Shown here: piece by piece, positions 3,337 through 43,056 of the stretch
How the letters are laid out: every line of letters starts with the position of its first letter
How positions within the stretch are numbered: the first letter of the stretch is position 1
Made by a program: the position numbers and the translations under genes
Notes under the pieces: generated by a model
The model's input: the letters and a program-made list of their open reading frames with translations, nothing else
Database searches by the model: none
Told to the model about the DNA's origin: nothing
UHGV virus genome: UHGV-0076294
Origin: a virus
Strand: one strand, 5' to 3'
Length of the DNA: 64,000 bases

Positions 3337-3870
3337 ATGGATAGTCAAGCTACTAACCAAATGCAGCTAGTCGAGTTATATAACGCTGCCAACACTGGTT
3401 TGCCGCACAAATTGGTGTCGTCTGAAGTAAAATTTGGTCTGCCCTCTGCAAACGACGACGGTGAAAAAAATACCAAAGTTACAATGACCGCTTTACCCGG
3501 CTCAGAAAATTTCCGTGGTCAGATTGAACTTAAGTACGACCGATTAAACCCCTCCATAATTTCTGATTCTCTGGGAGTGGTCAAACTCGAGGGGGAGATA
3601 GAAAAATGGCGGGAAGATAACTATGTTCGCGCCTATCTGCAACATTATATTAACCAAGTAAAACCCAAAGACACAATAGCCACAGGCGATATTGTTTATA
3701 GTTACGAAGAAGTAAAAGAACAGGATAAACTTGTCGCACTACGAGTTACCTGCACTGTCGCTGAAAGAAACCATAAATATCTGCAAGGCGTAATGCTTGT
3801 CTTTGAAGTTAGTCCAGAAAAGATCGATCTTTCCACCACCAACGGTGAGTTGGACGGTTTTACTGCTTAA
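3337..3870 (+). CDS. Hypothetical protein, paralog pair member 2
   Basis: NTKVTMTA..NFRG..KYDRL and C-terminal GELDGFTA shared with 2758..3285. AGGAG RBS. Confidence 0.75.
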   Translation: MDSQATNQMQLVELYNAANTGLPHKLVSSEVKFGLPSANDDGEKNTKVTMTALPGSENFRGQIELKYDRLNPSIISDSLGVVKLEGEIEKWREDNYVRAYLQHYINQVKPKDTIATGDIVYSYEEVKEQDKLVALRVTCTVAERNHKYLQGVMLVFEVSPEKIDLSTTNGELDGFTA

Positions 3871-3908
3871 TCGCTAAGTCAACTATTATAACAAAAAAAT
3901 AATAAGTT

Positions 3909-3943
3909 TACCTACCTCCTTTACGGAGGTAGGTACTTTTTTT
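3909..3943. terminator. Bidirectional rho-independent terminator
   Basis: TACCTACCTCC/GGAGGTAGGTA stem followed by T7. Sits between convergent genes. Confidence 0.8.
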
Positions 3944-4616
3944 ATTTTATCCCCATTTCTAAAGCGTACGCTCGGATGGTATCATAATCACGCTGCTCGG
4001 CTAAAAGTCGAAGCTCTTTTTTCTGCTCGGTTTTCTGATTATGCAATTTCTGATCGCGTTTCACAATCGTTGCCATCAGTTCCTTACACTGCTCCAATGT
4101 GAACGGTTCCACTCGAGCGTTTGATGTGTCCAACCAGTAATCCGGTGCGGTTTCTGATTGGATATACTGACTTAACATCTGTCTTGACGTTGAGTCTGTT
4201 TGGAAATAACGTCCGTTTAATTCAATAGGCGCATAACGTTGCTCCTCATAAAGACGCTCCATCTCTATCATGATTTTCTGAACATCCTGATAGATATACC
4301 GCACCGTAGAACGAACGTTATTTCGTATTTCTTCTAAATCAATCTCAAGAACATCAGAGATAAATTCTTTCGCTTTCTGTAGCGTAAAATTAGCCTCAAT
4401 CTCTGACATATCATAACTGCGCATCTGTTCGATTGCGGCCTTATCTTCCAACCCTTCGATTAATTTGTAATGTAGAAGCGCACAAAAACCTGCACGGCCA
4501 CGATCCTCATTGCCAATTCGTTCCATGTAATTACCGTGCCGATCGATTGGAAGCCCTCGTGAGAAATAACGTTGGCGTATTTCCTCTTTCGTTAAGCTTT
4601 CGTCAATAACAGACAT
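3942..4616 (-). CDS. DUF4376-like domain protein (fibre-operon accessory)
   Basis: C-half IELNGRYFQTDSTSRQMLSQYI...WLDTSNARVEPFTLEQCKEL fits my memory of the DUF4376 pattern seen next to phage fibre genes. AAAGGAG RBS. Last gene of the operon. Confidence 0.45.
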   Translation of the reverse strand: MSVIDESLTKEEIRQRYFSRGLPIDRHGNYMERIGNEDRGRAGFCALLHYKLIEGLEDKAAIEQMRSYDMSEIEANFTLQKAKEFISDVLEIDLEEIRNNVRSTVRYIYQDVQKIMIEMERLYEEQRYAPIELNGRYFQTDSTSRQMLSQYIQSETAPDYWLDTSNARVEPFTLEQCKELMATIVKRDQKLHNQKTEQKKELRLLAEQRDYDTIRAYALEMGIK

Positions 4617-5164
4617 TCATCATCTCCTTTAACTAAACCCAGTTCAATTAACAATTCAAAATCGATTTGGCGAAATTTGTTATCAAAACCAGAATCCCAA
4701 TCGATATGTAACCCTTGTCGTTCTTCATCGGTAAGTTCAGGATAAATTAAACCAAGGAACGCTTCACGTTCTTCGTAAAATCCATCGATAGTAGAATCTG
4801 GATTTCGTGTTGCATAGATCGTAATGCCCGGAAAGGATAATCCTAATGCTGTTATAGATTCGACGCTCGGTTCTTGCAAGGCCCTGCGTAAAAGCACGAT
4901 TTTATGTCGTGGAAATTCTAGTACACGTTGTTCAAATCCAGGATTCCGTTTCTCAATTTCTGTAACTGAAAGATCGGTGAGTTCTGTGCAATACATTGGG
5001 ATAACTACGGTTACTCCGTGACGAATTAATAGTCGTTTAACATCGTCAGTGAAGTCTTCACCGTTAATTTGCACATAACAACCAAACAGTTTTGTGCTCT
5101 CTAAAAACTTTTCCAAAAAACGGAATTTACGCTTCGTAATATTGTGGATCAGAATTGGTTTCAT
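4592..5164 (-). CDS. Hypothetical protein
   Basis: 190-aa ORF overlapping both neighbours (translational coupling). No recognisable motif. Confidence 0.6.
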   Translation of the reverse strand: MKPILIHNITKRKFRFLEKFLESTKLFGCYVQINGEDFTDDVKRLLIRHGVTVVIPMYCTELTDLSVTEIEKRNPGFEQRVLEFPRHKIVLLRRALQEPSVESITALGLSFPGITIYATRNPDSTIDGFYEEREAFLGLIYPELTDEERQGLHIDWDSGFDNKFRQIDFELLIELGLVKGDDECLLLTKA

Positions 5165-6449
5165 CTTTGGCTTCTCTCAATTGTTTTTCTTTCTGGGCAC
5201 GTTCACGTACGCAACGAGGGCAATAACACATGCTATTATCGTGAAAATCTTTCACTGACGTCGTGCCCATTTTCTGTTTCCAATATTCCGCAACCATCAA
5301 TTTTGCAGTTGTCCAGCCGCATTGACGGCGTTCGGCGTGATAAGCTTTGCGATCTTCTAGCGTCCCTTCTCCATTCTCGTAAGATGCAGCCGCACAACTA
5401 CCACAAGCGTGCTTCATTGGACAACCTAAACAGGTTTCAGGATAGTTGGTATATTGCGTCTGAATCTCTTCCAGCAATTTCCCGTCATCTAAGCTAACGA
5501 ATTCCCGGCCAACTAATTCAAATACGGCAGAACGTGATGTTACGGTTGACATGAAACGGTTACAACCGAAGATCTTACGATCGAATCCTAAGCAGGTCAT
5601 GTGTGTTAACGTACCGCAGAACGGACGTAAACGTTCTGGATTCAAACGTACAGTATCGTTATACAATAATTGGTCGCGCCAGTTTGGTTCCCAGATAGTA
5701 TCAAAATCTAACCCGTCTGGAATGATGTGCGACAAGGTGTTACGTGGGTTGGTGTGTAAGCCCTTCTCAACCCAATAATCAACCACATCCATCATCTGCA
5801 ATGCGATTGAAGTAGCCATGCTCCGTGGCATAATGTCTTCGAAGGTTACGTTGCCGGAAATAGTTCCACCGCCAGTAATATCAATTAATGATTTCATTCC
5901 AGCAGCATAGAACGGTAACGTTTCCAACGTAAAGGTCGCTTTTACACCAAGTTCTGCAATACCGACTTCTTTTAAGTAATTATAGCCCCGCACAGCGGCC
6001 TCGTAAGATCCTTCACGAGTTGTTGTAAAAATCCGGTACTTATCGTGCGATTCGGGCAATCCATCAATAGACACCCCAATAGAAAGCCTGTCTTTCCAAC
6101 GTTCAATAATTTCTCTATTCAAAGGTCTATCTAACAATGTTCCGTTAGTAGAAATGCTAAACATAAACGGCCGATTATGTTTTTCGCATAACTCTTCTGC
6201 GGTTTCAAATGCCGCCATTAATAACTTAGGCTGCATAAACGGCTCGCCGCCGATAATGTCGATAACGACCTCGATGTTTGTCAGGTCTTTATCCCTTTCG
6301 AAACAGGCATGTAAAAAATCAACGATATCTGCCGCTTTGTTATTCCGAGGATACTTACGTTCGTAACAATACTCACAGTCTAGGTTACACGATAAATTTG
6401 TAACGATCTGATAAGTCAGTTGTTTAGGATAACTATTTTCTTGACTCAT
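5127..6449 (-). CDS. Radical SAM enzyme with SPASM-like C-terminal auxiliary-cluster domain
   Basis: CNLDCEYC (CX3CX2C) at about residue 21, GGEPFM, C-terminal CLGCPMKHACGSC (CX2CX5CX2C) plus further Cys. 440 aa, similar in size to AnSME/SCIFF maturases. GAGGGG RBS. Confidence 0.85.
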   Translation of the reverse strand: MSQENSYPKQLTYQIVTNLSCNLDCEYCYERKYPRNNKAADIVDFLHACFERDKDLTNIEVVIDIIGGEPFMQPKLLMAAFETAEELCEKHNRPFMFSISTNGTLLDRPLNREIIERWKDRLSIGVSIDGLPESHDKYRIFTTTREGSYEAAVRGYNYLKEVGIAELGVKATFTLETLPFYAAGMKSLIDITGGGTISGNVTFEDIMPRSMATSIALQMMDVVDYWVEKGLHTNPRNTLSHIIPDGLDFDTIWEPNWRDQLLYNDTVRLNPERLRPFCGTLTHMTCLGFDRKIFGCNRFMSTVTSRSAVFELVGREFVSLDDGKLLEEIQTQYTNYPETCLGCPMKHACGSCAAASYENGEGTLEDRKAYHAERRQCGWTTAKLMVAEYWKQKMGTTSVKDFHDNSMCYCPRCVRERAQKEKQLREAKDETNSDPQYYEA

Positions 6450-7356
6450 TTTCCGCCCCTCTATTACGTTCTGCCATCACTACACGACGAATGTACTCGT
6501 AAGCTTCTACACCTATTGAGGAGGCTAGTTGGTTACACCCTGCTTTCGTAGCTATTGGTACATTTTTAAGTTGGTTTTCTTCCCCGTCCGCGTCTATCCT
6601 GAGACTTTCGCTACAGGCGTTACAAGCATGATCGAAGAATCTGTTTACAATAAAGCCGCAGTCTCTAGAATTTAGAACATTCAGTCTTTCTATATTCTCC
6701 TGAATTCTAAAATACCCGTAAATAAAGTTCATAACGTGATCGGGAGATAACGGTTTTGGCATGTTTTTGTCTAGTAATAAGGACATAGAACGAAAACCGT
6801 AATGGTAGATAGCAGTATATAATTGAATGATATCTTCATGCCATCTTTTATTGGATAAATTCTCCCTCGTAACAACAGCCCAAGTGTTAACATTATTCAA
6901 GCTGTAAATTACTTCTAACGCCTCATGGCAATTATCATCAATAAAGCGCTTAAAAGGCCGTTCAGAAAGATTAAACCCATCGATGCTAACATATATAGCA
7001 TCGAATTGTTTTAACAACGGTAGATGCGATTTACGCATTTTTAAACCGTTCGTGAACATTTGGTGTTTGAGTTCAGGACGGATCGTTTTTAATTCGTCAA
7101 CAAACGCCTCAATCTTTCGAGTTGCCAGTAGCGGTTCACCGCCAGTCCACTGAATTTCAGTAATGGTTGGGTTAGACGACAACGCTTTCAAAATTCGTTC
7201 ACGTTGAAACTCTCGCGGAGAATCTTCACGATGCATGTAATAGGCTCCGCCGCAGAAGCTACAGTCCAGATTACATTTGGATGTAGCAACTACGGACAAT
7301 ACGGTGGGTTTATTGTATAAACGATTCGATAACCTTGGCTCTACGTCGGTTGTCAT
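6433..7356 (-). CDS. Radical SAM enzyme (small paralog 2)
   Basis: SKCNLDCSFCGGAYY, GGEPLL, C-terminal CNACS...GC cysteines. Start set to ATG 7356 by length alignment with paralog 9406..10320 (ORF track gives 7371). Confidence 0.85.
   Translation of the reverse strand: MTTDVEPRLSNRLYNKPTVLSVVATSKCNLDCSFCGGAYYMHREDSPREFQRERILKALSSNPTITEIQWTGGEPLLATRKIEAFVDELKTIRPELKHQMFTNGLKMRKSHLPLLKQFDAIYVSIDGFNLSERPFKRFIDDNCHEALEVIYSLNNVNTWAVVTRENLSNKRWHEDIIQLYTAIYHYGFRSMSLLLDKNMPKPLSPDHVMNFIYGYFRIQENIERLNVLNSRDCGFIVNRFFDHACNACSESLRIDADGEENQLKNVPIATKAGCNQLASSIGVEAYEYIRRVVMAERNRGAENESRK
6679..6773. repeat. 95-nt block 100% identical to 9643..9737
   Basis: Checked base by base. Lies inside the rSAM paralogs at constant offset 2964. 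Confidence 0.95.
7010..7047. repeat. 38-nt block identical to 9974..10011
   Basis: tttaacaacggtagatgcgatttacgcatttttaaacc in both copies, offset 2964. Confidence 0.95.
7231..7281. repeat. 51-nt block identical to 10195..10245
   Basis: atgcatgtaataggctccgccgcagaagctacagtccagattacatttgga in both copies (encodes the CX3CX2C region), offset 2964. Confidence 0.95.
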
Positions 7357-7377
7357 TGCAGGTGACTCCATCTATTT

Positions 7378-8265
7378 TTAAATATAGCCAATGGATAACA
7401 AAGGATCGTCGTAAGCGTTAACTCCGGGTTTTAATACAAATGGTGAATTGTAAGCCTCGATAATGCGATTAAGGTCCTTATAACGCACGTTTAAACGTTC
7501 TAAATCCGCCAACGTTACGTTACGTTCCAATACCGCCGACACTGCTGCTTTTTCTTCATCAGTTAACGTGACTTTCGTCATTAAGAAACTAACAAGTTTT
7601 GCTAAATCTGCTTCCGATGACGGGTGTTCACCAATACGTGTTTGAATTAAATGTTGCATCCACGGCTTACGAATACGTTTTGTGATTTCATGTTCATCTG
7701 TAAGGGCAACCCACACAGAGCGTTCGCGATCCCACACAAATTTATAACTGTACGCCATCAGATCGGCTAAGCAGTTGATGCCAAGCTCCTCGTAACCTTC
7801 TATTTCAATGTACGGTTCGGTATCAACATAGTTTTTTGTTTCTACAGGAACCAGTGCATAAAAGTACGGGAATGAACCGAGATAGTCTGGAGACCACCAA
7901 CGACGTGCTACAGGCTTCGCATTCAACTCTTTAAATGGCGTAAAGAACAATTCCAAATCTACAGAATTATTCAGAATACCGTCACTAAAGAAATATTTAC
8001 CGTCAACCAATTTACCGCGTAAATCTGAATCACCGGTAAACACCACTACGCTTTCTGCTGACAGATCGCGTATTTTAAAAGTGTTTTCTACTGAATAGTT
8101 ATTGCGATCGGTAAAAAAACGACCGCGCACTTTGGGCCATTCGCCAGGTAACTGAGTTAACAAACGAACTTTATCTTCCAAATGAGCGCGTATTGAATCG
8201 GGGGAAGAAATATGAAGTGGGTGGTTGAAAATTGTTTTATAGGCTAAATGCAAATCGTTTTTCAT
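7378..8265 (-). CDS. Hypothetical protein
   Basis: 295-aa ORF between the Cys-rich genes and rSAM 2. TGGAG RBS. No recognisable motif. Confidence 0.7.
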   Translation of the reverse strand: MKNDLHLAYKTIFNHPLHISSPDSIRAHLEDKVRLLTQLPGEWPKVRGRFFTDRNNYSVENTFKIRDLSAESVVVFTGDSDLRGKLVDGKYFFSDGILNNSVDLELFFTPFKELNAKPVARRWWSPDYLGSFPYFYALVPVETKNYVDTEPYIEIEGYEELGINCLADLMAYSYKFVWDRERSVWVALTDEHEITKRIRKPWMQHLIQTRIGEHPSSEADLAKLVSFLMTKVTLTDEEKAAVSAVLERNVTLADLERLNVRYKDLNRIIEAYNSPFVLKPGVNAYDDPLLSIGYI

Positions 8266-8277
8266 TGATTACTCCAA

Positions 8278-8568
8278 TTATTTTACGGTCAATCTGACGT
8301 TCAAGGTATAGAACCCGCCACGCCATTGCCTGCCGGTAACTTCAAATTCCGCAGTAAAGCCGTTTGATTTACTCGGTTGCTGCGTAATCGCCATGGTTCC
8401 GCCGGAATTACTTAATACTTCTAACGAGATAGAAACAGAAGATGCATTACCGATAGAGTCTATCTTAAAACTAGCCGCGTCTGTAAAATTGACACTGATA
8501 CCGTTACCCATCGCAACTTGTGGATAGGCGTAAGACTTGCCAGACAGTAACGATTTAAAGATCCTCAT
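8278..8568 (-). CDS. Beta-rich domain ORF, probably the -1 frame continuation of 8739..8945
   Basis: No SD before ATG 8568. Its frame is open upstream to 8757, across the G10 run. Confidence 0.6.
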   Translation of the reverse strand: MRIFKSLLSGKSYAYPQVAMGNGISVNFTDAASFKIDSIGNASSVSISLEVLSNSGGTMAITQQPSKSNGFTAEFEVTGRQWRGGFYTLNVRLTVK

Positions 8569-8945
8569 CGGTTTTTCTTTACCGGTTAATGTTGCGCATT
8601 GAATAAAGACGGTCCCAGTAGAGAAATTGATACGGACAACATCTTTAGCGTGTAGCTTAGACTCAACATAAACAACGGCTTTGTTATCGTAGGCGGGTCT
8701 TGATGGGGTTGGTGTGGAACCGCCGCCGGAGGGCTTACTTACCCCCCCCCCGCTCCCTTACTACAGCTACCGCTGCACGACCAACTACAACCACCGTTAC
8801 AATTATAATGACTTAAAGGTAACCCAGCTAGATTGTTGGTTGAAGAAACCGTCCCTTGGTTTGCAATATAGTTGTTTGCATTAGCGGTGGTGATATATCC
8901 CTCCGCTGTTACTAACCTGTCGCGTATGTTTTTAAGACTTATCAT
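8278..8945 (-). CDS. Candidate fusion product (fibre-like N-terminus, mini CX3C segment, G/P/T linker, beta-rich domain) via -1 frameshift
   Basis: Hand translation: frames differ by exactly -1 and overlap only across GCG GGG GGG GGG TAA. No stop in the linking segment. Confidence 0.5.
8739..8945 (-). CDS. Cys-rich fibre-like protein 3 (short form, 4 Cys)
   Basis: MISLKNIRDRL... N-terminus and NCNGGCSWSCSGSCS junction homologous to the two longer Cys-rich proteins. Confidence 0.7.
   Translation of the reverse strand: MISLKNIRDRLVTAEGYITTANANNYIANQGTVSSTNNLAGLPLSHYNCNGGCSWSCSGSCSKGAGGG
8742..8751 (-). repeat. G10 homopolymer (C10 on + strand), a slippery or phase-variable tract
   Basis: Ten consecutive C at 8742..8751, directly abutting the TAA of the 68-aa ORF. 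Confidence 0.95.
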
Positions 8946-8948
8946 TTC

Positions 8949-9347
8949 TTATCTTCCAGTACACGATTGCTGACATCCGCCTCGACATGAACCCGAACAT
9001 GTTCCGGTGCAACTACTTGAACAACCACCCGAGCAGTTACCTGTGCACCCTCCTGAGCAGGTACTGCTACAACCTGTACAACCTGTACTACATCCTGAAA
9101 CACAGTTCGCTGAACAGGAAGAACCGCAGCCACCGGAGGCGTTGCCGGTGCAGCCGCCCGAACAACTTGAGCATGTCCAGCTACAGCTACCTCCGCAGTC
9201 ATAGTGAGTTCTCGGCTGTCCTCCAAACAGATCGCTATTATTAGTGGCTTTACCACGAATATAGTTCTGCACCGCACCAGTGTTTTTTAATGCAGTAGAG
9301 TCTATGTTATCCAGCCGGGCCTTTAAAGAAGATAAACCAATCGCCAT
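8949..9347 (-). CDS. CX3C-repeat Cys/Gly/Ser/Thr-rich protein 2
   Basis: 132 aa with 20 Cys in the last ~82 residues, mostly CX3C. Conserved N-region and DCGGSCSWTCS junction. Confidence 0.85.
   Translation of the reverse strand: MAIGLSSLKARLDNIDSTALKNTGAVQNYIRGKATNNSDLFGGQPRTHYDCGGSCSWTCSSCSGGCTGNASGGCGSSCSANCVSGCSTGCTGCSSTCSGGCTGNCSGGCSSSCTGTCSGSCRGGCQQSCTGR
9167..9200. repeat. 34-nt block identical to 10555..10588
   Basis: ttgagcatgtccagctacagctacctccgcagtc encodes DCGGSCSWTCS on the minus strand in both Cys-rich genes. Confidence 0.95.
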
Positions 9348-9405
9348 TTTAATACCTACTGGTTTAGTGCCCCCTAGGACACATTATAATTCATTTTCTG
9401 TAAAA

Positions 9406-10320
9406 TTATCGTAGTTTTTCTGAGACTCTATTCTTAGCCCCTACCACACGACGTATATAGTCGTAAGCATCTAATCCAACCTTTCTGGCCAAGTCACTAC
9501 AACCATGCTGCGTTACGATTTCAACGTTCTTTACTTGGTTCTGGGCACCGTCAGACTCAATGCGAAAACAACGACTACACGTATTACAGGGTTCATCAAA
9601 TAACGCATTTAGCGTAAACGCACATTCACTTCGATTGGACGAATTCAGTCTTTCTATATTCTCCTGAATTCTAAAATACCCGTAAATAAAGTTCATAACG
9701 TGATCGGGAGATAACGGTTTTGGCATGTTTTTGTCTAAAACCAGCGACATCTCACAAAAACCATAATGGTAAATGTGGTTATGTAACGCAATTATATCTT
9801 CGTACCAACGTTTATCCCCAATACGCTCGCGTGTCAAGACCGCCCAAGTACGAATATTTTTCAATTCGTAAATTGTCTCCAAAACCTCGTATTGTTTTTC
9901 TTCGATAATCCTCATGAACGGACGCTCTGATTCTTTGAATCCATCCATGCTAAAAAAGATACTATCAAAACCCTTTAACAACGGTAGATGCGATTTACGC
10001 ATTTTTAAACCATTGGTATACAGGTAATGTTCGCAACGAGGATACTTCTCCCTTATCTCTTCTATAAGGGTATCAATTTTACGCGAGGCAAGTAATGGTT
10101 CGCCCCCTGACCATTGGATATTTGTGATAGTCGGGTTATTTTCCAGCGCCTCGATAATACTTTCCTTTTGTACTTCTGTGGTTGTATCCTCTCTATGCAT
10201 GTAATAGGCTCCGCCGCAGAAGCTACAGTCCAGATTACATTTGGACGTTGTAATCACGTTTAACGTTCTCGGATTACTGTAGAGCTTATCGGATACCGTC
10301 GGTCTAGTAAGTTCTTCCAT
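9406..10320 (-). CDS. Radical SAM enzyme (small paralog 1)
   Basis: SKCNLDCSFCGGAYY, GGEPLL, C-terminal CNTCSRC...GC. Paralog of 6433..7356. Confidence 0.85.
   Translation of the reverse strand: MEELTRPTVSDKLYSNPRTLNVITTSKCNLDCSFCGGAYYMHREDTTTEVQKESIIEALENNPTITNIQWSGGEPLLASRKIDTLIEEIREKYPRCEHYLYTNGLKMRKSHLPLLKGFDSIFFSMDGFKESERPFMRIIEEKQYEVLETIYELKNIRTWAVLTRERIGDKRWYEDIIALHNHIYHYGFCEMSLVLDKNMPKPLSPDHVMNFIYGYFRIQENIERLNSSNRSECAFTLNALFDEPCNTCSRCFRIESDGAQNQVKNVEIVTQHGCSDLARKVGLDAYDYIRRVVGAKNRVSEKLR
9643..9737. repeat. 95-nt block identical to 6679..6773
   Basis: See 6679..6773. Confidence 0.95.
9974..10011. repeat. 38-nt block identical to 7010..7047
   Basis: See 7010..7047. Confidence 0.95.
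10195..10245. repeat. 51-nt block identical to 7231..7281
   Basis: See 7231..7281. Confidence 0.95.
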
Positions 10321-10339
10321 TCGAACTGATCCTTATTTT

Positions 10340-10732
10340 TTATGGGTTAGAACAACCACCTGCACAAGAACCACTACACCCCGAGGAACAACGTCCAGCA
10401 CATCCCCCAGTACAAGTCCCACTACATCCTGAACAACCACCCGAACATGTTCCGGTGCAACCACTGCATTGATTACCACACGCAGAGGAACAGCTTCCTA
10501 CGCACACCGATGTACATGTACCTGAACAACTCGTACAACCATGCGTACAACCGTTTGAGCATGTCCAGCTACAGCTACCTCCGCAGTCTAATCGACCGGG
10601 TGTCCAACCTGAAAATGAATCAGCAGCATTATGTGCTTTCGACGCAACTTGCGGATCAACACGTGGCCCAGTTGCTATTCGGTTCTCTACGTTGGTGATT
10701 CGGTCACGTACGTTTTTAACACTGATCGCCAT
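10340..10732 (-). CDS. CX3C-repeat Cys/Gly/Ser/Thr-rich protein 1
   Basis: 21 Cys in the last ~82 residues. MAISVKNVRDRI N-terminus. Start set to ATG 10732 (AAGGA 6 nt upstream) rather than GTG 10735. Confidence 0.85.
   Translation of the reverse strand: MAISVKNVRDRITNVENRIATGPRVDPQVASKAHNAADSFSGWTPGRLDCGGSCSWTCSNGCTHGCTSCSGTCTSVCVGSCSSACGNQCSGCTGTCSGGCSGCSGTCTGGCAGRCSSGCSGSCAGGCSNP
10555..10588. repeat. 34-nt block identical to 9167..9200
   Basis: See 9167..9200. Confidence 0.95.
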
Positions 10733-10743
10733 CACATATCCTT

Positions 10744-10789
10744 AAAATAAAAAAGAATGGAGGACTACGTCCATAAACATAGTTCCTCC
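10744..10789 (-). terminator. Candidate terminator/attenuator between fibre gene 4 and the Cys-rich/rSAM cluster
   Basis: Minus strand: 9-bp stem with one bulge (GGAGGAACTA.../...TAGTCCTCC) followed by TTCTTTTTTATTTT. Confidence 0.5.
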
Positions 10790-10799
10790 TGTAATTAAA

Positions 10800-11999
10800 T
10801 TATTTCGTACCCGCTTCTGCTTGTACGTCATCACGAGACGTCAGGTTAGCGTTAACGTGCACTGGGGCCTGAACCACGCCACCGTATCTCTTGTGGAGAT
10901 AACCTGTATGTGGGTTATCTGCCGCAATGTGGTTTTGTAGGTTTTGGTTCGCCTGACTGATTGCGTTCGTGTTATTATTAACCTGCTGTTTAAGCGCATC
11001 CAGGTTTTGTTGTAACTGATCGATTTTCTGATCGGTTTCTTGGCCATGTTGCTCTAACGCTTCAACACGCTGAATAACCTGATTCAGTTTTGTATTTAAA
11101 TCGTTGACACTCTTTTGCAGTTGTAACACTAACGAGTTCAGGTTCGCTAACGCTAAAGCCATTTTCTGGTAGTTTTGAGCAACCACGTTAAGTTGGTCGT
11201 TCCACGCTTCCAGAGAGCTGACAACAGCGTCAATACGCTTACCTAAAGCTTCATCTGCTTTCTTCAGTGCATTGATTTCCGTAATCGTTGCGTCGATAGC
11301 AGACTGGACGTCACGAATAAGCGCACGGATTTCAGTTTCTGTTAGTCCATTAACCTGATGGATATCAAGTTGGTGGACGTTACCGGTTGCATTGATGTGC
11401 GCATTTAAAGCGTCCAAGAAGTCGTTTTTCAGACTTTCCAGAATCGCTTTAATGTTCTCTAACTGTACCGCATCGCCAGAACTGATCGCGTCCTTAATGC
11501 CCGCCAATACAGCGATGATATATTCAAAGCCATAAATGTCACCTACGTCTTTATACGTCGGCGCTGACGGGAATGTATCTGGTACGTTACGTAAGTCTTT
11601 AAATGCAACTGTACGGTTATCGAGGTTTAGCTCAGCAATCGCTTGTTCGATAGCCACGATGTTTGCAGACTGTGGGCCACCAACTACCTGCGCAGATACC
11701 GTAATGTCTGTCGGAATCGCTGTGTTAGTGACCACAACCGCCATGACAATCTCGCGGTTTTTAGTCAGCTTTTCATAAGCCGGGTGTGCAAAAATCAACT
11801 CATAATCGGTACCACGTTCGTAGGTTGCATCCGGTCGGTTAGCAACGCGCAAACGAAACGTGTCCGCAAAGAACGGGCCGTCAGGAAAAGCAAAAGCACG
11901 GTTTACTTTACCTGTACCTAACGTAACCTGACGCTCCACAGCGTTAGACGTTAGCGAGCCTGTTAAATCTAAAGGATATTGGTAAACAATGGAGGCCAT
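10800..11999 (-). CDS. Tail fibre protein (short, coiled-coil shaft)
   Basis: N-terminal FPDGPFF...GTDYEL module shared with the three giant fibre genes. Long heptad-like Q/N/L-rich segment. Start set to ATG 11999 (AAGGAGAG RBS). Confidence 0.8.
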   Translation of the reverse strand: MASIVYQYPLDLTGSLTSNAVERQVTLGTGKVNRAFAFPDGPFFADTFRLRVANRPDATYERGTDYELIFAHPAYEKLTKNREIVMAVVVTNTAIPTDITVSAQVVGGPQSANIVAIEQAIAELNLDNRTVAFKDLRNVPDTFPSAPTYKDVGDIYGFEYIIAVLAGIKDAISSGDAVQLENIKAILESLKNDFLDALNAHINATGNVHQLDIHQVNGLTETEIRALIRDVQSAIDATITEINALKKADEALGKRIDAVVSSLEAWNDQLNVVAQNYQKMALALANLNSLVLQLQKSVNDLNTKLNQVIQRVEALEQHGQETDQKIDQLQQNLDALKQQVNNNTNAISQANQNLQNHIAADNPHTGYLHKRYGGVVQAPVHVNANLTSRDDVQAEAGTK

Positions 12000-12039
12000 G
12001 GCCACTCTCCTTTATTCGAGACGTCCTTGTCCCGAGTCA

Positions 12040-39535: not shown

Positions 39536-39979
39536 ATGGAAATTTATTTGTTGAACGCACTTTCTAAAATCGGTGAAGAACAAGCGAAAGATTTACTCGC
39601 ACTTCATTACCGTTACTTAGATCATCAAGCAACGATGCTGAAAATCAAAACCGCTGTACCGAAATTAAACGTGCGTCAACTGATCGAAGGCAACTGTGTT
39701 GTTCTGATTTATATCGACGATGTTGCGGCGGGTTATTGCAGTTACCGTAATCGCAACGGGGTACTCAAAATTCGTTCGCTATACGTGCTGCCCGATTACC
39801 GTCAGCGTGGGGTAATGAAAGAAATCTTCAAAGCGATAGCCGCTGATGAAGCATTCGGTGAAATTGCAATTGGGATGTACACGAAGTGCAAAGAAGCGAA
39901 AGAGTATTTCATTCGTCGTGGCTACAAAGCAACCTATTCTCACGATAAAGAATGGGTGGATTTCAGTAAAACTTTCTAA
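39536..39979 (+). CDS. GNAT-family N-acetyltransferase
   Basis: Acetyl-CoA motif region RSLYVLPDYRQRGVMKEIFKAI, 147 aa. Confidence 0.7.
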   Translation: MEIYLLNALSKIGEEQAKDLLALHYRYLDHQATMLKIKTAVPKLNVRQLIEGNCVVLIYIDDVAAGYCSYRNRNGVLKIRSLYVLPDYRQRGVMKEIFKAIAADEAFGEIAIGMYTKCKEAKEYFIRRGYKATYSHDKEWVDFSKTF

Positions 39980-42576: not shown

Positions 42577-43056
42577 ATGTTGAAGTTTATCTGGCGTTAC
42601 CCAACCCGCTTTTGGTTCGTGGTATTAGAGGTAATCACCGTTTTACTGTTAGTGACGTTCGTAAACGCCTCTACGAAACAAATGGTGATTTTCTGTGTAT
42701 TCGACGCTATACCGTTGTGGGTATTTGCAAAGATTATTAAGTTTTACATGATAAGCTGGGCGAACTACACCTGTCCATTTAAACCCAGAGAAATCATGAA
42801 CTGGTTGATGTATATCGAAGACCGTTTACCCGCTCAGTCTAAAACGTTAGGCTGGCAATCGATGTTGGATATTGCGCTAGAAACAAACGCAAAATTCCCT
42901 GGGTCAAAGAATCCTTATTTGCTGCTGGCTGTTATTGTTGCCCAGCAGAAACGTGCAGGCGAACGTTGGTTACCGAAAGAAGCGAAAGAGTATATTCGTA
43001 AACATCCGAAGGCTTTCTATTCCGTAGGTCAATGGCGTAACCTCCCACTCTTTTAA
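42577..43056 (+). CDS. Membrane protein
   Basis: Two N-terminal hydrophobic helices (FWFVVLEVITVLLLVTF, MVIFCVFDAIPLWVFA). AAAGGAG RBS. Confidence 0.7.
   Translation: MLKFIWRYPTRFWFVVLEVITVLLLVTFVNASTKQMVIFCVFDAIPLWVFAKIIKFYMISWANYTCPFKPREIMNWLMYIEDRLPAQSKTLGWQSMLDIALETNAKFPGSKNPYLLLAVIVAQQKRAGERWLPKEAKEYIRKHPKAFYSVGQWRNLPLF

What the first reader, a model, noticed from the sequence alone, without database searches (positions are those of the whole stretch)
6679..10245. Patchwork of 100%-identical nucleotide blocks in otherwise diverged rSAM paralogs (constant offset 2964 nt)
Seen: the two small rSAM genes align without indels. They contain three perfectly identical blocks, separated by stretches that differ at many positions, non-synonymous ones included.
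- 95 nt: 6679..6773 = 9643..9737
- 38 nt: 7010..7047 = 9974..10011
- 51 nt: 7231..7281 = 10195..10245

The blocks encode DKNMPKPLSPDHVMNFIYGYFRIQENIERLN, GLKMRKSHLPLLK and the SKCNLDCSFCGGAYYMH cluster loop.

Inference: identity at synonymous sites points to recent patchy gene conversion or recombination between paralogs. An alternative is a nucleotide-level constraint, not protein selection alone. Such repeats could also drive deletion or duplication of the intervening 3-kb Cys-rich cassette.
Basis: seen in the sequence. Interest (0 to 1): 0.45.

Follow-up and report, generated by a model that had tools for sequence, protein, structure and literature searches.

The report
Ongoing gene conversion between phage rSAM paralogs
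Two anciently diverged copies of a small radical-SAM enzyme gene in an uncultured jumbo phage keep copying three short stretches (38-95 bases) onto each other; this is a clear but ordinary case of patchy gene conversion.

Summary
The blocks 6679-6773=9643-9737, 7010-7047=9974-10011 and 7231-7281=10195-10245 are 100% identical at offset 2964. They lie inside two radical-SAM (rSAM) genes that are otherwise 65% (nt) and 60% (aa) identical, with saturated synonymous divergence.

- 16 genomes of this SPN3US-related jumbo-phage lineage carry both paralogs (11 distinct haplotype pairs). All have the same three blocks, with edges shifting by up to about 12 nt.
- 11 polymorphic sites inside the blocks are concerted: both paralogs carry the same base in every genome, while genomes differ. 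One codon exists as Ser, Thr or Ala.
- Single-copy relatives show normal synonymous divergence in the same segments. No RNA family or unusual fold was found, so a nucleotide-level constraint is not supported.
- The blocks encode the Fe-S cluster loop and two loops at the C-terminal ends of predicted barrel strands. They are bounded by fixed paralog-specific codons.

Seven short metagenomic contigs are a/b chimeras that switch exactly in the blocks: a 2964-nt deletion, its reciprocal junction, and a long b|a|b tract. I could not tell real recombinants from low-coverage assembler chimeras.

Known kind of process, new example. Interest is moderate.

The parts
9406..10320 (-). rSAM2b: small radical-SAM paralog (304 aa), inserted between two Cys-rich genes. 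It is present only in this phage sub-lineage.
   Evidence: PF04055 at 53.5 bits against a cut-off of 29.5. All 64 phage records with a homologue in the 'phages' collection have a single rSAM2. The b clade has 100% bootstrap support on a long branch. The AlphaFold model has pLDDT 81.7, and the best PDB folds are CteB, SuiB and anSME.
6433..7371 (-). rSAM2a: small radical-SAM paralog. The ORF is 312 aa; the likely real start is at 7356, giving 307 aa. It is the orthologue of SPN3US/SEGD1 'radical SAM superfamily protein 2' and overlaps the start of rSAM1.
   Evidence: PF04055 at 48.7 bits. 63% aa identity to SEGD1 gp167. The a clade has 94% bootstrap support and includes the single-copy L005.
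6679..6773 (-). Block 3, a copy (95 nt), encoding DKNMPKPLSPDHVMNFIYGYFRIQENIERLN. It covers the end of beta-6, a loop and a helix in the model.
   Evidence: Identical to 9643-9737. Concerted polymorphisms at alignment nt 612, 615, 633, 636 and 660, which are window 6745, 6742, 6724, 6721 and 6697. Switch point of 7 chimeric contigs.
9643..9737 (-). Block 3, b copy (95 nt).
7010..7047 (-). Block 2, a copy (38 nt), encoding GLKMRKSHLPLLK. It follows beta-3 (TNG).
   Evidence: Identical to 9974-10011. Concerted sites at alignment nt 312, 318, 328, 340 and 343. Site 328 has three alleles (Ser, Thr, Ala), each present in both paralogs of its genome.
9974..10011 (-). Block 2, b copy (38 nt).
7231..7281 (-). 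Block 1, a copy (51 nt), encoding SKCNLDCSFCGGAYYMH, which contains the CX3CX2C Fe-S cluster loop.
   Evidence: Identical to 10195-10245. Concerted site at alignment nt 99. W_a carries the b-type His where other a copies have Asn.
10195..10245 (-). Block 1, b copy (51 nt).
5127..6449 (-). rSAM1: large radical-SAM enzyme (440 aa). Its best match is the CXXX-repeat-target peptide maturase family.
   Evidence: TIGR04115 at 118 bits over the full length, below the equivalog cut-off of 350; PapB-family match at 114 bits.
8949..9347 (-). Cys132: CXXX-repeat Cys-rich protein, the putative maturase substrate. It lies inside the 2964-nt repeat unit.
   Evidence: TIGR04114 at 22.3 bits against a cut-off of 20; phrog_6085.
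10340..10735 (-). Cys131: CXXX-repeat Cys-rich protein immediately upstream of rSAM2b.
   Evidence: TIGR04114 at 20.1 bits against a cut-off of 20; phrog_6085.
8739..8945 (-). Cys68: short member of the same Cys-rich family.
   Evidence: phrog_6085, E = 8e-25.
9167..9200 (-). 34-nt exact block shared by Cys132 and Cys131 (= 10555-10588), encoding DCGGSCSWTCS. This is a second, smaller case of the same phenomenon.
   Evidence: The variants are genome-specific yet shared by both copies in several genomes: GAC (W) vs GAT (L015/L016), GGT (L003) vs GGC (L004), and AGT-TGC-AGT in L030. L017, L027 and the L031 group show 1-3 differences between their two copies. Single-rSAM2 genomes L005 and L007 have 6 and 8 differences there.
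7378..8265 (-). gp168-like conserved protein (295 aa, phrog_8030). It lies inside the 2964-nt unit and would be lost in the deletion recombinant.
8278..8568 (-). orf96: variable small ORF inside the unit. It is absent from L003, L004 and SEGD1.

Best explanation
rSAM2a and rSAM2b are old paralogs in a tail-fibre-adjacent gene cluster for maturing CXXX-repeat Cys-rich proteins. The phage is an uncultured jumbo phage of about 226 kb related to SPN3US.

Ectopic homologous recombination repeatedly copies short tracts (tens of bases to about 100) from one paralog onto the other. Both directions are seen at tract edges. Three segments are therefore kept identical within each genome, while they still drift between genomes. 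This step is shown.

The tracts are confined to the three longest stretches in which both enzymes need the same residues: the Fe-S cluster loop and two loops at the C-terminal ends of barrel strands.
- There, purifying selection has kept enough uninterrupted identity for strand exchange, and conversion is selectively neutral.
- Each block ends at codons with multi-base, paralog-specific differences that are fixed in all genomes.
- These codons either block heteroduplex extension, or tracts that cross them are removed by selection.

This second step is inferred.

The same direct repeats can also support unequal crossing-over, which would delete or duplicate the 2964-nt unit, and long-tract replacement. 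Chimeric contigs suggest this, but it is not proven.
For: 1. Synonymous identity: 56 of 56 codons match inside the blocks against 44 of 118 outside (p = 3.7e-18). The same segments show no excess in single-copy orthologue comparisons (p = 0.16-0.74).
2. Age of the paralogs: outside the blocks dS is saturated and dN is 0.44. The a and b copies form separate clades.
3. Phylogeny in the blocks: in the 169-nt block core, sequences cluster by genome. All 6 variable sites are a=b, and 2 of them separate the near-identical L003 and L004.
4. Population data: 16 two-copy genomes from several assemblers all have the three blocks, with edges varying by up to about 12 nt.
5. Concerted sites: 11 are fully concerted and 2 are private to one copy. 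One site is tri-allelic (S/T/A) and still concerted (proteins).
6. Edge polarity goes both ways.
   - b to a: W_a has the b-type His42, the Lys of DKNMP, and nt 673-678.
   - a to b: L030_b has a-type bases at nt 127-132.
7. A second paralog pair, Cys131/Cys132, shows the same behaviour.
8. Structure: the blocks map to the ends of beta-1, beta-3 and beta-6 plus the following loops and helices in a model of pLDDT 81.7. That model resembles the peptide-modifying rSAM enzymes CteB, SuiB and anSME.
9. Chimeric contigs switch exactly in blocks 1 and 3.
Against: - No conversion event was observed directly. All evidence is comparative.
- A fourth strongly conserved motif (WTGGEPLL) is not homogenised, so amino-acid conservation alone does not predict a block.
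- The data do not separate 'homology-limited' from 'selection-limited' tract ends.
- The chimeric contigs are all short (1.4-8.4 kb). Their flanks are 99-100% identical to full-length strains (100% for L023-L025, which come from the same study as those strains). They may be de Bruijn-graph mis-joins in low-coverage samples.
- The tree is distance-based. The sister relation of the a and b clades has only 72% support.
Confidence: 0.9

Rival explanations
1. The identical blocks are selected recombination linkers. They would be kept identical because they let the phage population shuffle the variable, substrate-specifying modules of the two maturases and vary the copy number of the 3-kb Cys-rich cassette. 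This would resemble the conserved motifs that mediate adhesin swapping in T-even tail-fibre genes.
For: - Chimeric genes with intact reading frames switch exactly in the blocks. There is a deletion type in 5 samples and two strain backgrounds, a reciprocal type, and a b|a|b type.
- The blocks persist in all 16 two-copy genomes.
Against: - Persistence of the blocks is fully explained by neutral conversion plus protein-level constraint.
- No chimera is seen on a long contig. All are 8.4 kb or shorter and could be assembler artefacts.
- The deletion product loses gp168-like, a gene conserved in all relatives.
- There is no evidence that chimeras are fitter.
Confidence: 0.1
2. The blocks are kept identical by a nucleotide-level function common to both genes, such as an RNA structure, a regulatory or protein-binding DNA site, or an sRNA target, and not by copying.
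For: Identity extends to every synonymous site.
Against: - Single-copy orthologues (L005, L007, SEGD1, pEa_SNUABM_6) diverge normally at synonymous sites in the same segments, and even at the amino-acid level (FRIQE vs YQVQD and WKILD).
- Block sequences differ between genomes but always in both copies. That would require repeated co-variation of two loci.
- There is no Rfam match at E <= 1, and folding z-scores are -1.5 to +1.2.
- The repeats are direct, so they cannot pair with each other.
Confidence: 0.03
3. rSAM2b is a recent duplicate of rSAM2a. The blocks are what remains of the original identity, and the rest diverged rapidly under positive selection.
For: The genes are collinear without indels. 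NJ places b as sister to the a clade (72%).
Against: - Synonymous sites outside the blocks are saturated, which selection on the protein cannot cause. Third-position identity is 48%, and only 37% of codons match at identical residues.
- The a and b orthologues are separately recognisable across diverged genomes.
- Concerted polymorphisms require continuing exchange.
Confidence: 0.02
4. Assembly artefact: near-identical segments of the two genes were collapsed to one consensus by the assembler.
For: Repeats of 38-95 nt are within the range where de Bruijn graphs can merge paths.
Against: - The same three blocks occur in contigs from at least four sources and several assemblers. These are IMG/VR UViGs, a GenBank WGS record, SPAdes-style NODE contigs and k141-named contigs (presumably MEGAHIT).
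- The blocks carry lineage-specific variants, and a few genuine one-copy differences are retained inside them.
Confidence: 0.02

Closest known systems
Interlocus (ectopic) gene conversion and concerted evolution of paralogs. Examples: tufA/tufB in Salmonella (my own knowledge); long-lasting concerted evolution in prokaryotes (PMC6053082); theory in PMC3924837.
   Same: - Paralogs in one genome are more alike than orthologues over a segment.
- Phylogeny of the segment conflicts with that of the flanks.
- Lineage-specific substitutions are shared by both copies, synonymous sites included.
   Different: Only about 20% of the gene is homogenised (184 of 912 nt), in three very short islands within otherwise saturated divergence. 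The setting is a lytic-type jumbo phage genome, not a cellular chromosome.
[quoted passage not shown] GOT1 paralogs of Tigriopus, PMC3728101).
   Same: - Patchwork of converted and unconverted segments.
- Tract boundaries coincide with paralog-specific residues.
- Chimeric combinations arise.
   Different: The proportions are inverted here: small islands of identity sit in a sea of divergence. The identity islands are the catalytic loops.
Conserved-motif-mediated recombination in T-even phage tail-fibre genes ('His boxes'; Tetart, Desplats and Krisch 1998, from my own knowledge, not checked in the library).
   Same: Short conserved nucleotide motifs inside otherwise divergent phage genes act as sites of homologous exchange and produce chimeric genes.
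   Different: There the exchange is mainly between phages and swaps host-range domains. Here it is between two paralogs of an enzyme within one genome, and an adaptive role is not shown.
CXXX-repeat peptide / radical-SAM maturase systems (NCBIfam TIGR04115 maturase and TIGR04114 Cys-rich repeat target) and PapB-type ranthipeptide maturases.
   Same: - The large rSAM1 aligns over the full length of TIGR04115.
- The Cys-rich proteins carry the CXXX repeat.
- The genes are adjacent.
   Different: - rSAM1 scores far below the equivalog cut-off.
- The cluster has one or two extra small rSAM enzymes and a conserved 295-aa protein.
- It is phage-encoded and sits next to tail-fibre genes.
- The chemistry is untested.

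Membership tests
Interlocus gene conversion / concerted evolution | Within a segment, paralogs of one genome are more similar to each other than to their orthologues, while the flanking sequence shows the opposite. | tested here: met
   - Block core: 0 differences a vs b within each of the four genomes compared, 2-5 between two-copy genomes, and 22-55 to single-copy orthologues.
- Outside the blocks: separate a and b clades.
Interlocus gene conversion / concerted evolution | Lineage-specific substitutions, including synonymous ones, are shared by both copies. | tested here: met
   11 fully concerted polymorphic sites in 11 haplotype pairs, against 2 private one-copy differences.
Interlocus gene conversion / concerted evolution | The excess identity is not explained by constraint acting on each gene separately. 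| tested here: met
   Single-copy orthologue pairs show no excess codon identity in the same segments. No RNA family or structure signal.
Interlocus gene conversion / concerted evolution | Direct observation of non-reciprocal transfer. | not testable with these tools
   This needs marked alleles and passaging, or read-level population data.
Radical SAM superfamily (PF04055) | A CX3CX2C cluster motif and a Pfam score above the gathering threshold. | tested here: met
   CNLDCSFC is present in both paralogs. Scores are 48.7 and 53.5 bits against a cut-off of 29.5. The fold matches CteB, SuiB and anSME.
CXXX-repeat-target radical SAM maturase (TIGR04115 equivalog) | Score at or above the curated cut-off of 350 bits. 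| tested here: not met
   rSAM1 scores 118 bits, although it aligns over the full length. It is related but not a member of the equivalog. The small rSAM2 paralogs do not hit this family among their listed best 25 families.
Cys-rich CXXX repeat target (TIGR04114) | Score at or above the curated cut-off of 20 bits. | tested here: met
   Cys132 scores 22.3 and Cys131 scores 20.1. Both are marginal.
SPASM/twitch auxiliary-cluster domain in the small rSAM2 enzymes | A C-terminal Cys motif that binds an auxiliary Fe-S cluster. | tested here: inconclusive
   Three invariant C-terminal Cys residues (C245, C248, C274). No Pfam SPASM hit. Cluster binding is not testable here.

The most novel reading that the evidence does not exclude
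The three identical blocks would be more than a by-product of conversion. They would work as built-in crossover points that let this phage lineage generate chimeric maturases (b|a, a|b, b|a|b) and delete or duplicate the 3-kb Cys-rich cassette at appreciable frequency in nature. That would amount to a recombinational diversification device for a tail-fibre-associated peptide-modification module.
Probability: 0.12. Interest if true: 0.6.

Novelty: new member of a known kind. Interest (0 to 1): 0.38.

Why it matters
- It is an unusually clean natural example of tracts as short as 29-95 nt being kept identical by ectopic conversion for a long time. The surrounding gene has diverged to saturation.
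- It puts a practical lower bound on the homology that recombination in this jumbo-phage lineage can use.
- It warns that paralog trees and dS estimates in phage genomes can be distorted locally.
- It points to direct repeats that may destabilise a conserved but uncharacterised gene cluster next to the tail-fibre genes. That cluster encodes radical-SAM enzymes and CXXX-repeat proteins.
- It does not reveal a new kind of mechanism.

Tried and rejected
- The repeat finder did not report the three blocks. I replaced it with direct comparison and a k-mer scan.
- RNA or nucleotide constraint is rejected. Rfam has no hit and folding z-scores are unremarkable.
- Recent duplication is rejected because dS outside the blocks is saturated.
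- Assembly collapse is rejected because independent assemblies carry lineage-specific block variants.
- An apparent rule that Cys131/Cys132 conversion occurs only in genomes with two rSAM2 genes weakened on inspection.
  - Two-copy genomes show 0-3 differences in that block.
  - Single-copy L007 shows some shared codons.
  - Only two single-copy genomes were informative. I do not claim the rule.
- The 23-nt Cys-gene repeat (8991-9013 = 10439-10461) is specific to this window; the other genomes checked share at most 16 nt there. It may be chance in low-complexity sequence.
- I could not decide whether the chimeric contigs are real. Their flanks are 99-100% identical to full-length strains, and contig names alone do not settle the assembler's behaviour.
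- Literature searches for SPN3US with 'radical SAM', and for jumbo phage with 'cysteine-rich', found nothing on this cluster.
- The 18-mer repeat at 39890/42976 lies in two small ORFs that share only a KEAKEY motif. It is probably chance.


Full report
**1. The observation**

The three blocks are exactly as reported:
- 6679-6773 = 9643-9737 (95 nt)
- 7010-7047 = 9974-10011 (38 nt)
- 7231-7281 = 10195-10245 (51 nt)

All lie at offset 2964. They sit in two minus-strand ORFs, 6433-7371 (rSAM2a) and 9406-10320 (rSAM2b). The ORFs align without gaps over 912 nt at 65.1% nt and 60% aa identity, and the blocks encode the quoted peptides.

Several tests show this is not chance.
- When mismatches are shuffled within codon-position classes, the longest identical run averages 13.7 nt (maximum 34 in 20,000 shuffles). 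The third-longest never exceeds 19. The observed runs are 95, 51 and 38.
- At residues that are identical and degenerate, the codon is identical in 56 of 56 cases inside the blocks and 44 of 118 outside (Fisher p = 3.7e-18).
- A k-mer scan of the whole 64-kb window finds only six exact repeats of 18 nt or more:
  - these three blocks;
  - two in the neighbouring Cys-rich genes;
  - one 18-mer elsewhere.

**2. Context**

The window comes from a relative of the SPN3US-like (Seoulvirus) and Machinavirus jumbo phages, at about 70% nt identity.

Reading along the minus strand, the locus contains:
- a virion-protein gene like SEGD1 gp171 (10800-12005);
- Cys131 (10340-10735);
- rSAM2b;
- Cys132 (8949-9347);
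- Cys68 (8739-8945);
- orf96;
- a conserved 295-aa protein like SEGD1 gp168 (7378-8265);
- rSAM2a;
- the large rSAM1 (5127-6449).

A 1727-aa fibre-like ORF lies just upstream.

Family matches:
- Both small enzymes pass the Pfam Radical_SAM threshold.
- rSAM1 aligns over the full length of the CXXX-repeat-target maturase family TIGR04115, but below its cut-off (118 vs 350 bits).
- Cys132 and Cys131 just reach the TIGR04114 CXXX-repeat cut-off.
- An AlphaFold model of rSAM2b (pLDDT 81.7) most resembles the peptide-modifying enzymes CteB, SuiB and anSME.

All 64 phage records with a homologue have a single small rSAM2. rSAM2b is therefore an extra copy, inserted between Cys131 and Cys132.

**3. 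Related genomes**

I recovered 16 genomes with both paralogs, giving 11 distinct a/b haplotype pairs. They came from IMG/VR, a metagenome pattern scan and exact-protein look-ups. I also recovered close single-copy relatives: L005, L007 and L013.

Outside the blocks the two paralogs are old.
- dS is saturated and dN is 0.44.
- A distance tree puts all a copies, including single-copy L005, in one clade (94%). All b copies form another, long-branched clade (100%). The two clades are sisters at only 72%.

**4. The decisive result**

Every two-copy genome has the same three exact blocks, with edges that shift by up to about 12 nt.

In the 169-nt block core shared by W and L003/L004, sequences group by genome and not by paralog. 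All six variable sites are identical in both copies of each genome, and two of them distinguish the near-identical L003 and L004.

Across the 11 haplotype pairs:
- 11 block sites are fully concerted (alignment nt 99, 312, 318, 328, 340, 343, 612, 615, 633, 636, 660);
- only two differences are private to one copy;
- site 328 exists as Ser, Thr or Ala, and always as the same residue in both paralogs of a genome.

Tract edges can be polarised in both directions.
- b to a: W_a has acquired the b-type His42, the Lys of DKNMP, and nt 673-678.
- a to b: L030_b has acquired a-type bases at nt 127-132.

The single-copy orthologues show ordinary synonymous divergence in these same segments, with p = 0.16-0.74 in the test that gives 3.7e-18 for the paralogs. 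They even differ at the protein level: FRIQE against YQVQD and WKILD.

This is the signature of continuing interlocus gene conversion. It rules out three alternatives:
- a constraint acting on each gene separately;
- a recent duplication;
- an assembly artefact.

Rfam finds nothing, and the blocks do not fold unusually.

**5. Why these three places (inferred)**

The blocks are the three longest runs of family-wide invariant residues. In the model they start at the C-terminal ends of beta-1 (followed by the Fe-S loop), beta-3 and beta-6. That is the cofactor and active-site face of the barrel.

Each block is bounded by codons with multi-base a/b differences that are fixed in all genomes: nt 61-62, 136-139, 295-298, 349-351, 579-582 and 679-681.

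The likely picture has two parts.
- Identical protein requirements preserved enough uninterrupted identity for strand exchange, and conversion there is neutral.
- Tracts stop at paralog-specific codons, either mechanically or because longer tracts are selected against.

The conserved GGEPLL motif is not homogenised, so conservation alone is not sufficient. The data do not separate the two ways in which tracts might end.

**6. Larger rearrangements**

A protein search with rSAM2b returned three cluster representatives that are a/b chimeras.
- L020 is Cys131, then [b 5' | block 3 | a 3'], then rSAM1. This is exactly the 2964-nt deletion. A cluster sibling carries the same junction in four more samples (L023-L026, up to 8.4 kb) and in two strain backgrounds.
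- L022 is the gp168-like 3' end, then [a 5' | block 3 | b 3'], then Cys132. This is the reciprocal or duplication junction. Its contig name begins with k141.
- L021 is b | block 1 | a | block 3 | b, sitting in the b locus. This is a long-tract replacement.

All have intact reading frames. However, all are short. The flanks of L023-L025 are 100% identical to full-length strains from the same study, and the others are 99% or more identical to known full-length strains. None lies on a long contig. Low-coverage graph mis-joins at the repeats cannot be excluded. I treat these contigs as candidates that need read-level checks.

**7. A second example in the same locus**

Cys131 and Cys132 are 33-45% identical at the protein level. 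They share a 34-nt exact block (9167-9200 = 10555-10588) encoding DCGGSCSWTCS.

The block has genome-specific versions shared by both copies in several genomes:
- GAC in W against GAT in L015/L016;
- GGT in L003 against GGC in L004;
- AGT-TGC-AGT in L030.

Other genomes (L017, L027 and the L031 group) show 1-3 differences between their two copies.

**8. Comparison with what is known, and verdict**

This is interlocus gene conversion and concerted evolution, a classical process (PMC3924837, PMC6053082). The mosaic pattern is comparable to other partly converted paralogs (PMC3728101). The use of short conserved motifs as crossover points recalls T-even tail-fibre genes; that comparison rests on my own knowledge.

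What is notable here:
- the tracts are short and sharply bounded;
- they persist against saturated background divergence;
- the population-level evidence is clear;
- the setting is a jumbo phage.

It is a new member of a known kind. Interest is moderate.

Noticed in passing
window 9167-9200 and 10555-10588 (also 8991-9013 = 10439-10461): The Cys-rich paralogs Cys132 and Cys131 share a 34-nt exact block encoding DCGGSCSWTCS. It shows genome-specific, two-copy-shared variants in several related genomes. The 23-nt repeat is specific to this window and may be chance.
   Followed up: yes
L020, L023-L026, L021, L022 (metagenome contigs; junctions correspond to window 6679-6773/9643-9737 and 7231-7281/10195-10245): Seven short contigs carry intact chimeric rSAM2 genes that switch exactly in the blocks. 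They comprise a 2964-nt deletion (5 samples, 2 strain backgrounds), the reciprocal junction, and a b|a|b replacement. I could not resolve real recombinants from assembler chimeras.
   Followed up: partly
L001 (SEGD1 KU726251) 10288-11320; gene calls in L016-L040 around 5974-6400: Public annotation and automatic gene calls often pick overlapping ORFs in other frames (e.g. SEGD1 gp169 and gp170, or an 86-aa call) instead of the CXXX-repeat Cys-rich ORFs. These proteins are therefore largely missing from annotations, and probably from proteomic search databases.
   Followed up: partly
window 3833-8761 compared with L003, L004 and L005: Modular mosaicism between W and L003.
- The segment from the gp168-like gene through rSAM2a and rSAM1 to the downstream genes is only about 64-84% identical (nt).
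- The rSAM2b core and the gp171-like gene are about 88-98% identical, dipping to about 69-86% in the Cys-rich genes.
- orf96 and its flanks (about 8270-8760) are absent from L003 and L004.
   Followed up: partly
window 7356-7371: The rSAM2a ORF can start at 7371, but relatives lack that ATG. The ATG at 7356 aligns exactly with the rSAM2b start, so 7356 is the likely start (307 aa).
   Followed up: yes
window 8739-9347 and 10340-10735: The Cys-rich proteins have a conserved, non-Cys N-terminal region of about 50 aa. They sit between a virion structural gene and tail-fibre-like genes, and three radical-SAM enzymes lie close by. They may be modified structural or fibre-associated proteins rather than secreted peptides. 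This is untested.
   Followed up: no
window 39890-39907 and 42976-42993: This 18-nt exact direct repeat lies in two small ORFs (39536-39979 and 42577-43056). They share only a short KEAKEY-type motif (BLASTP E = 0.004), so the repeat is probably chance.
   Followed up: partly
P0031, P0047, P0005, P0060 (source names): Identical or near-identical rSAM2 proteins are deposited under Shigella flexneri, Salmonella enterica and Escherichia coli assemblies. This hints at an enterobacterial host, or at phage reads within isolate assemblies. Full-length contigs are 223-230 kb.
   Followed up: no
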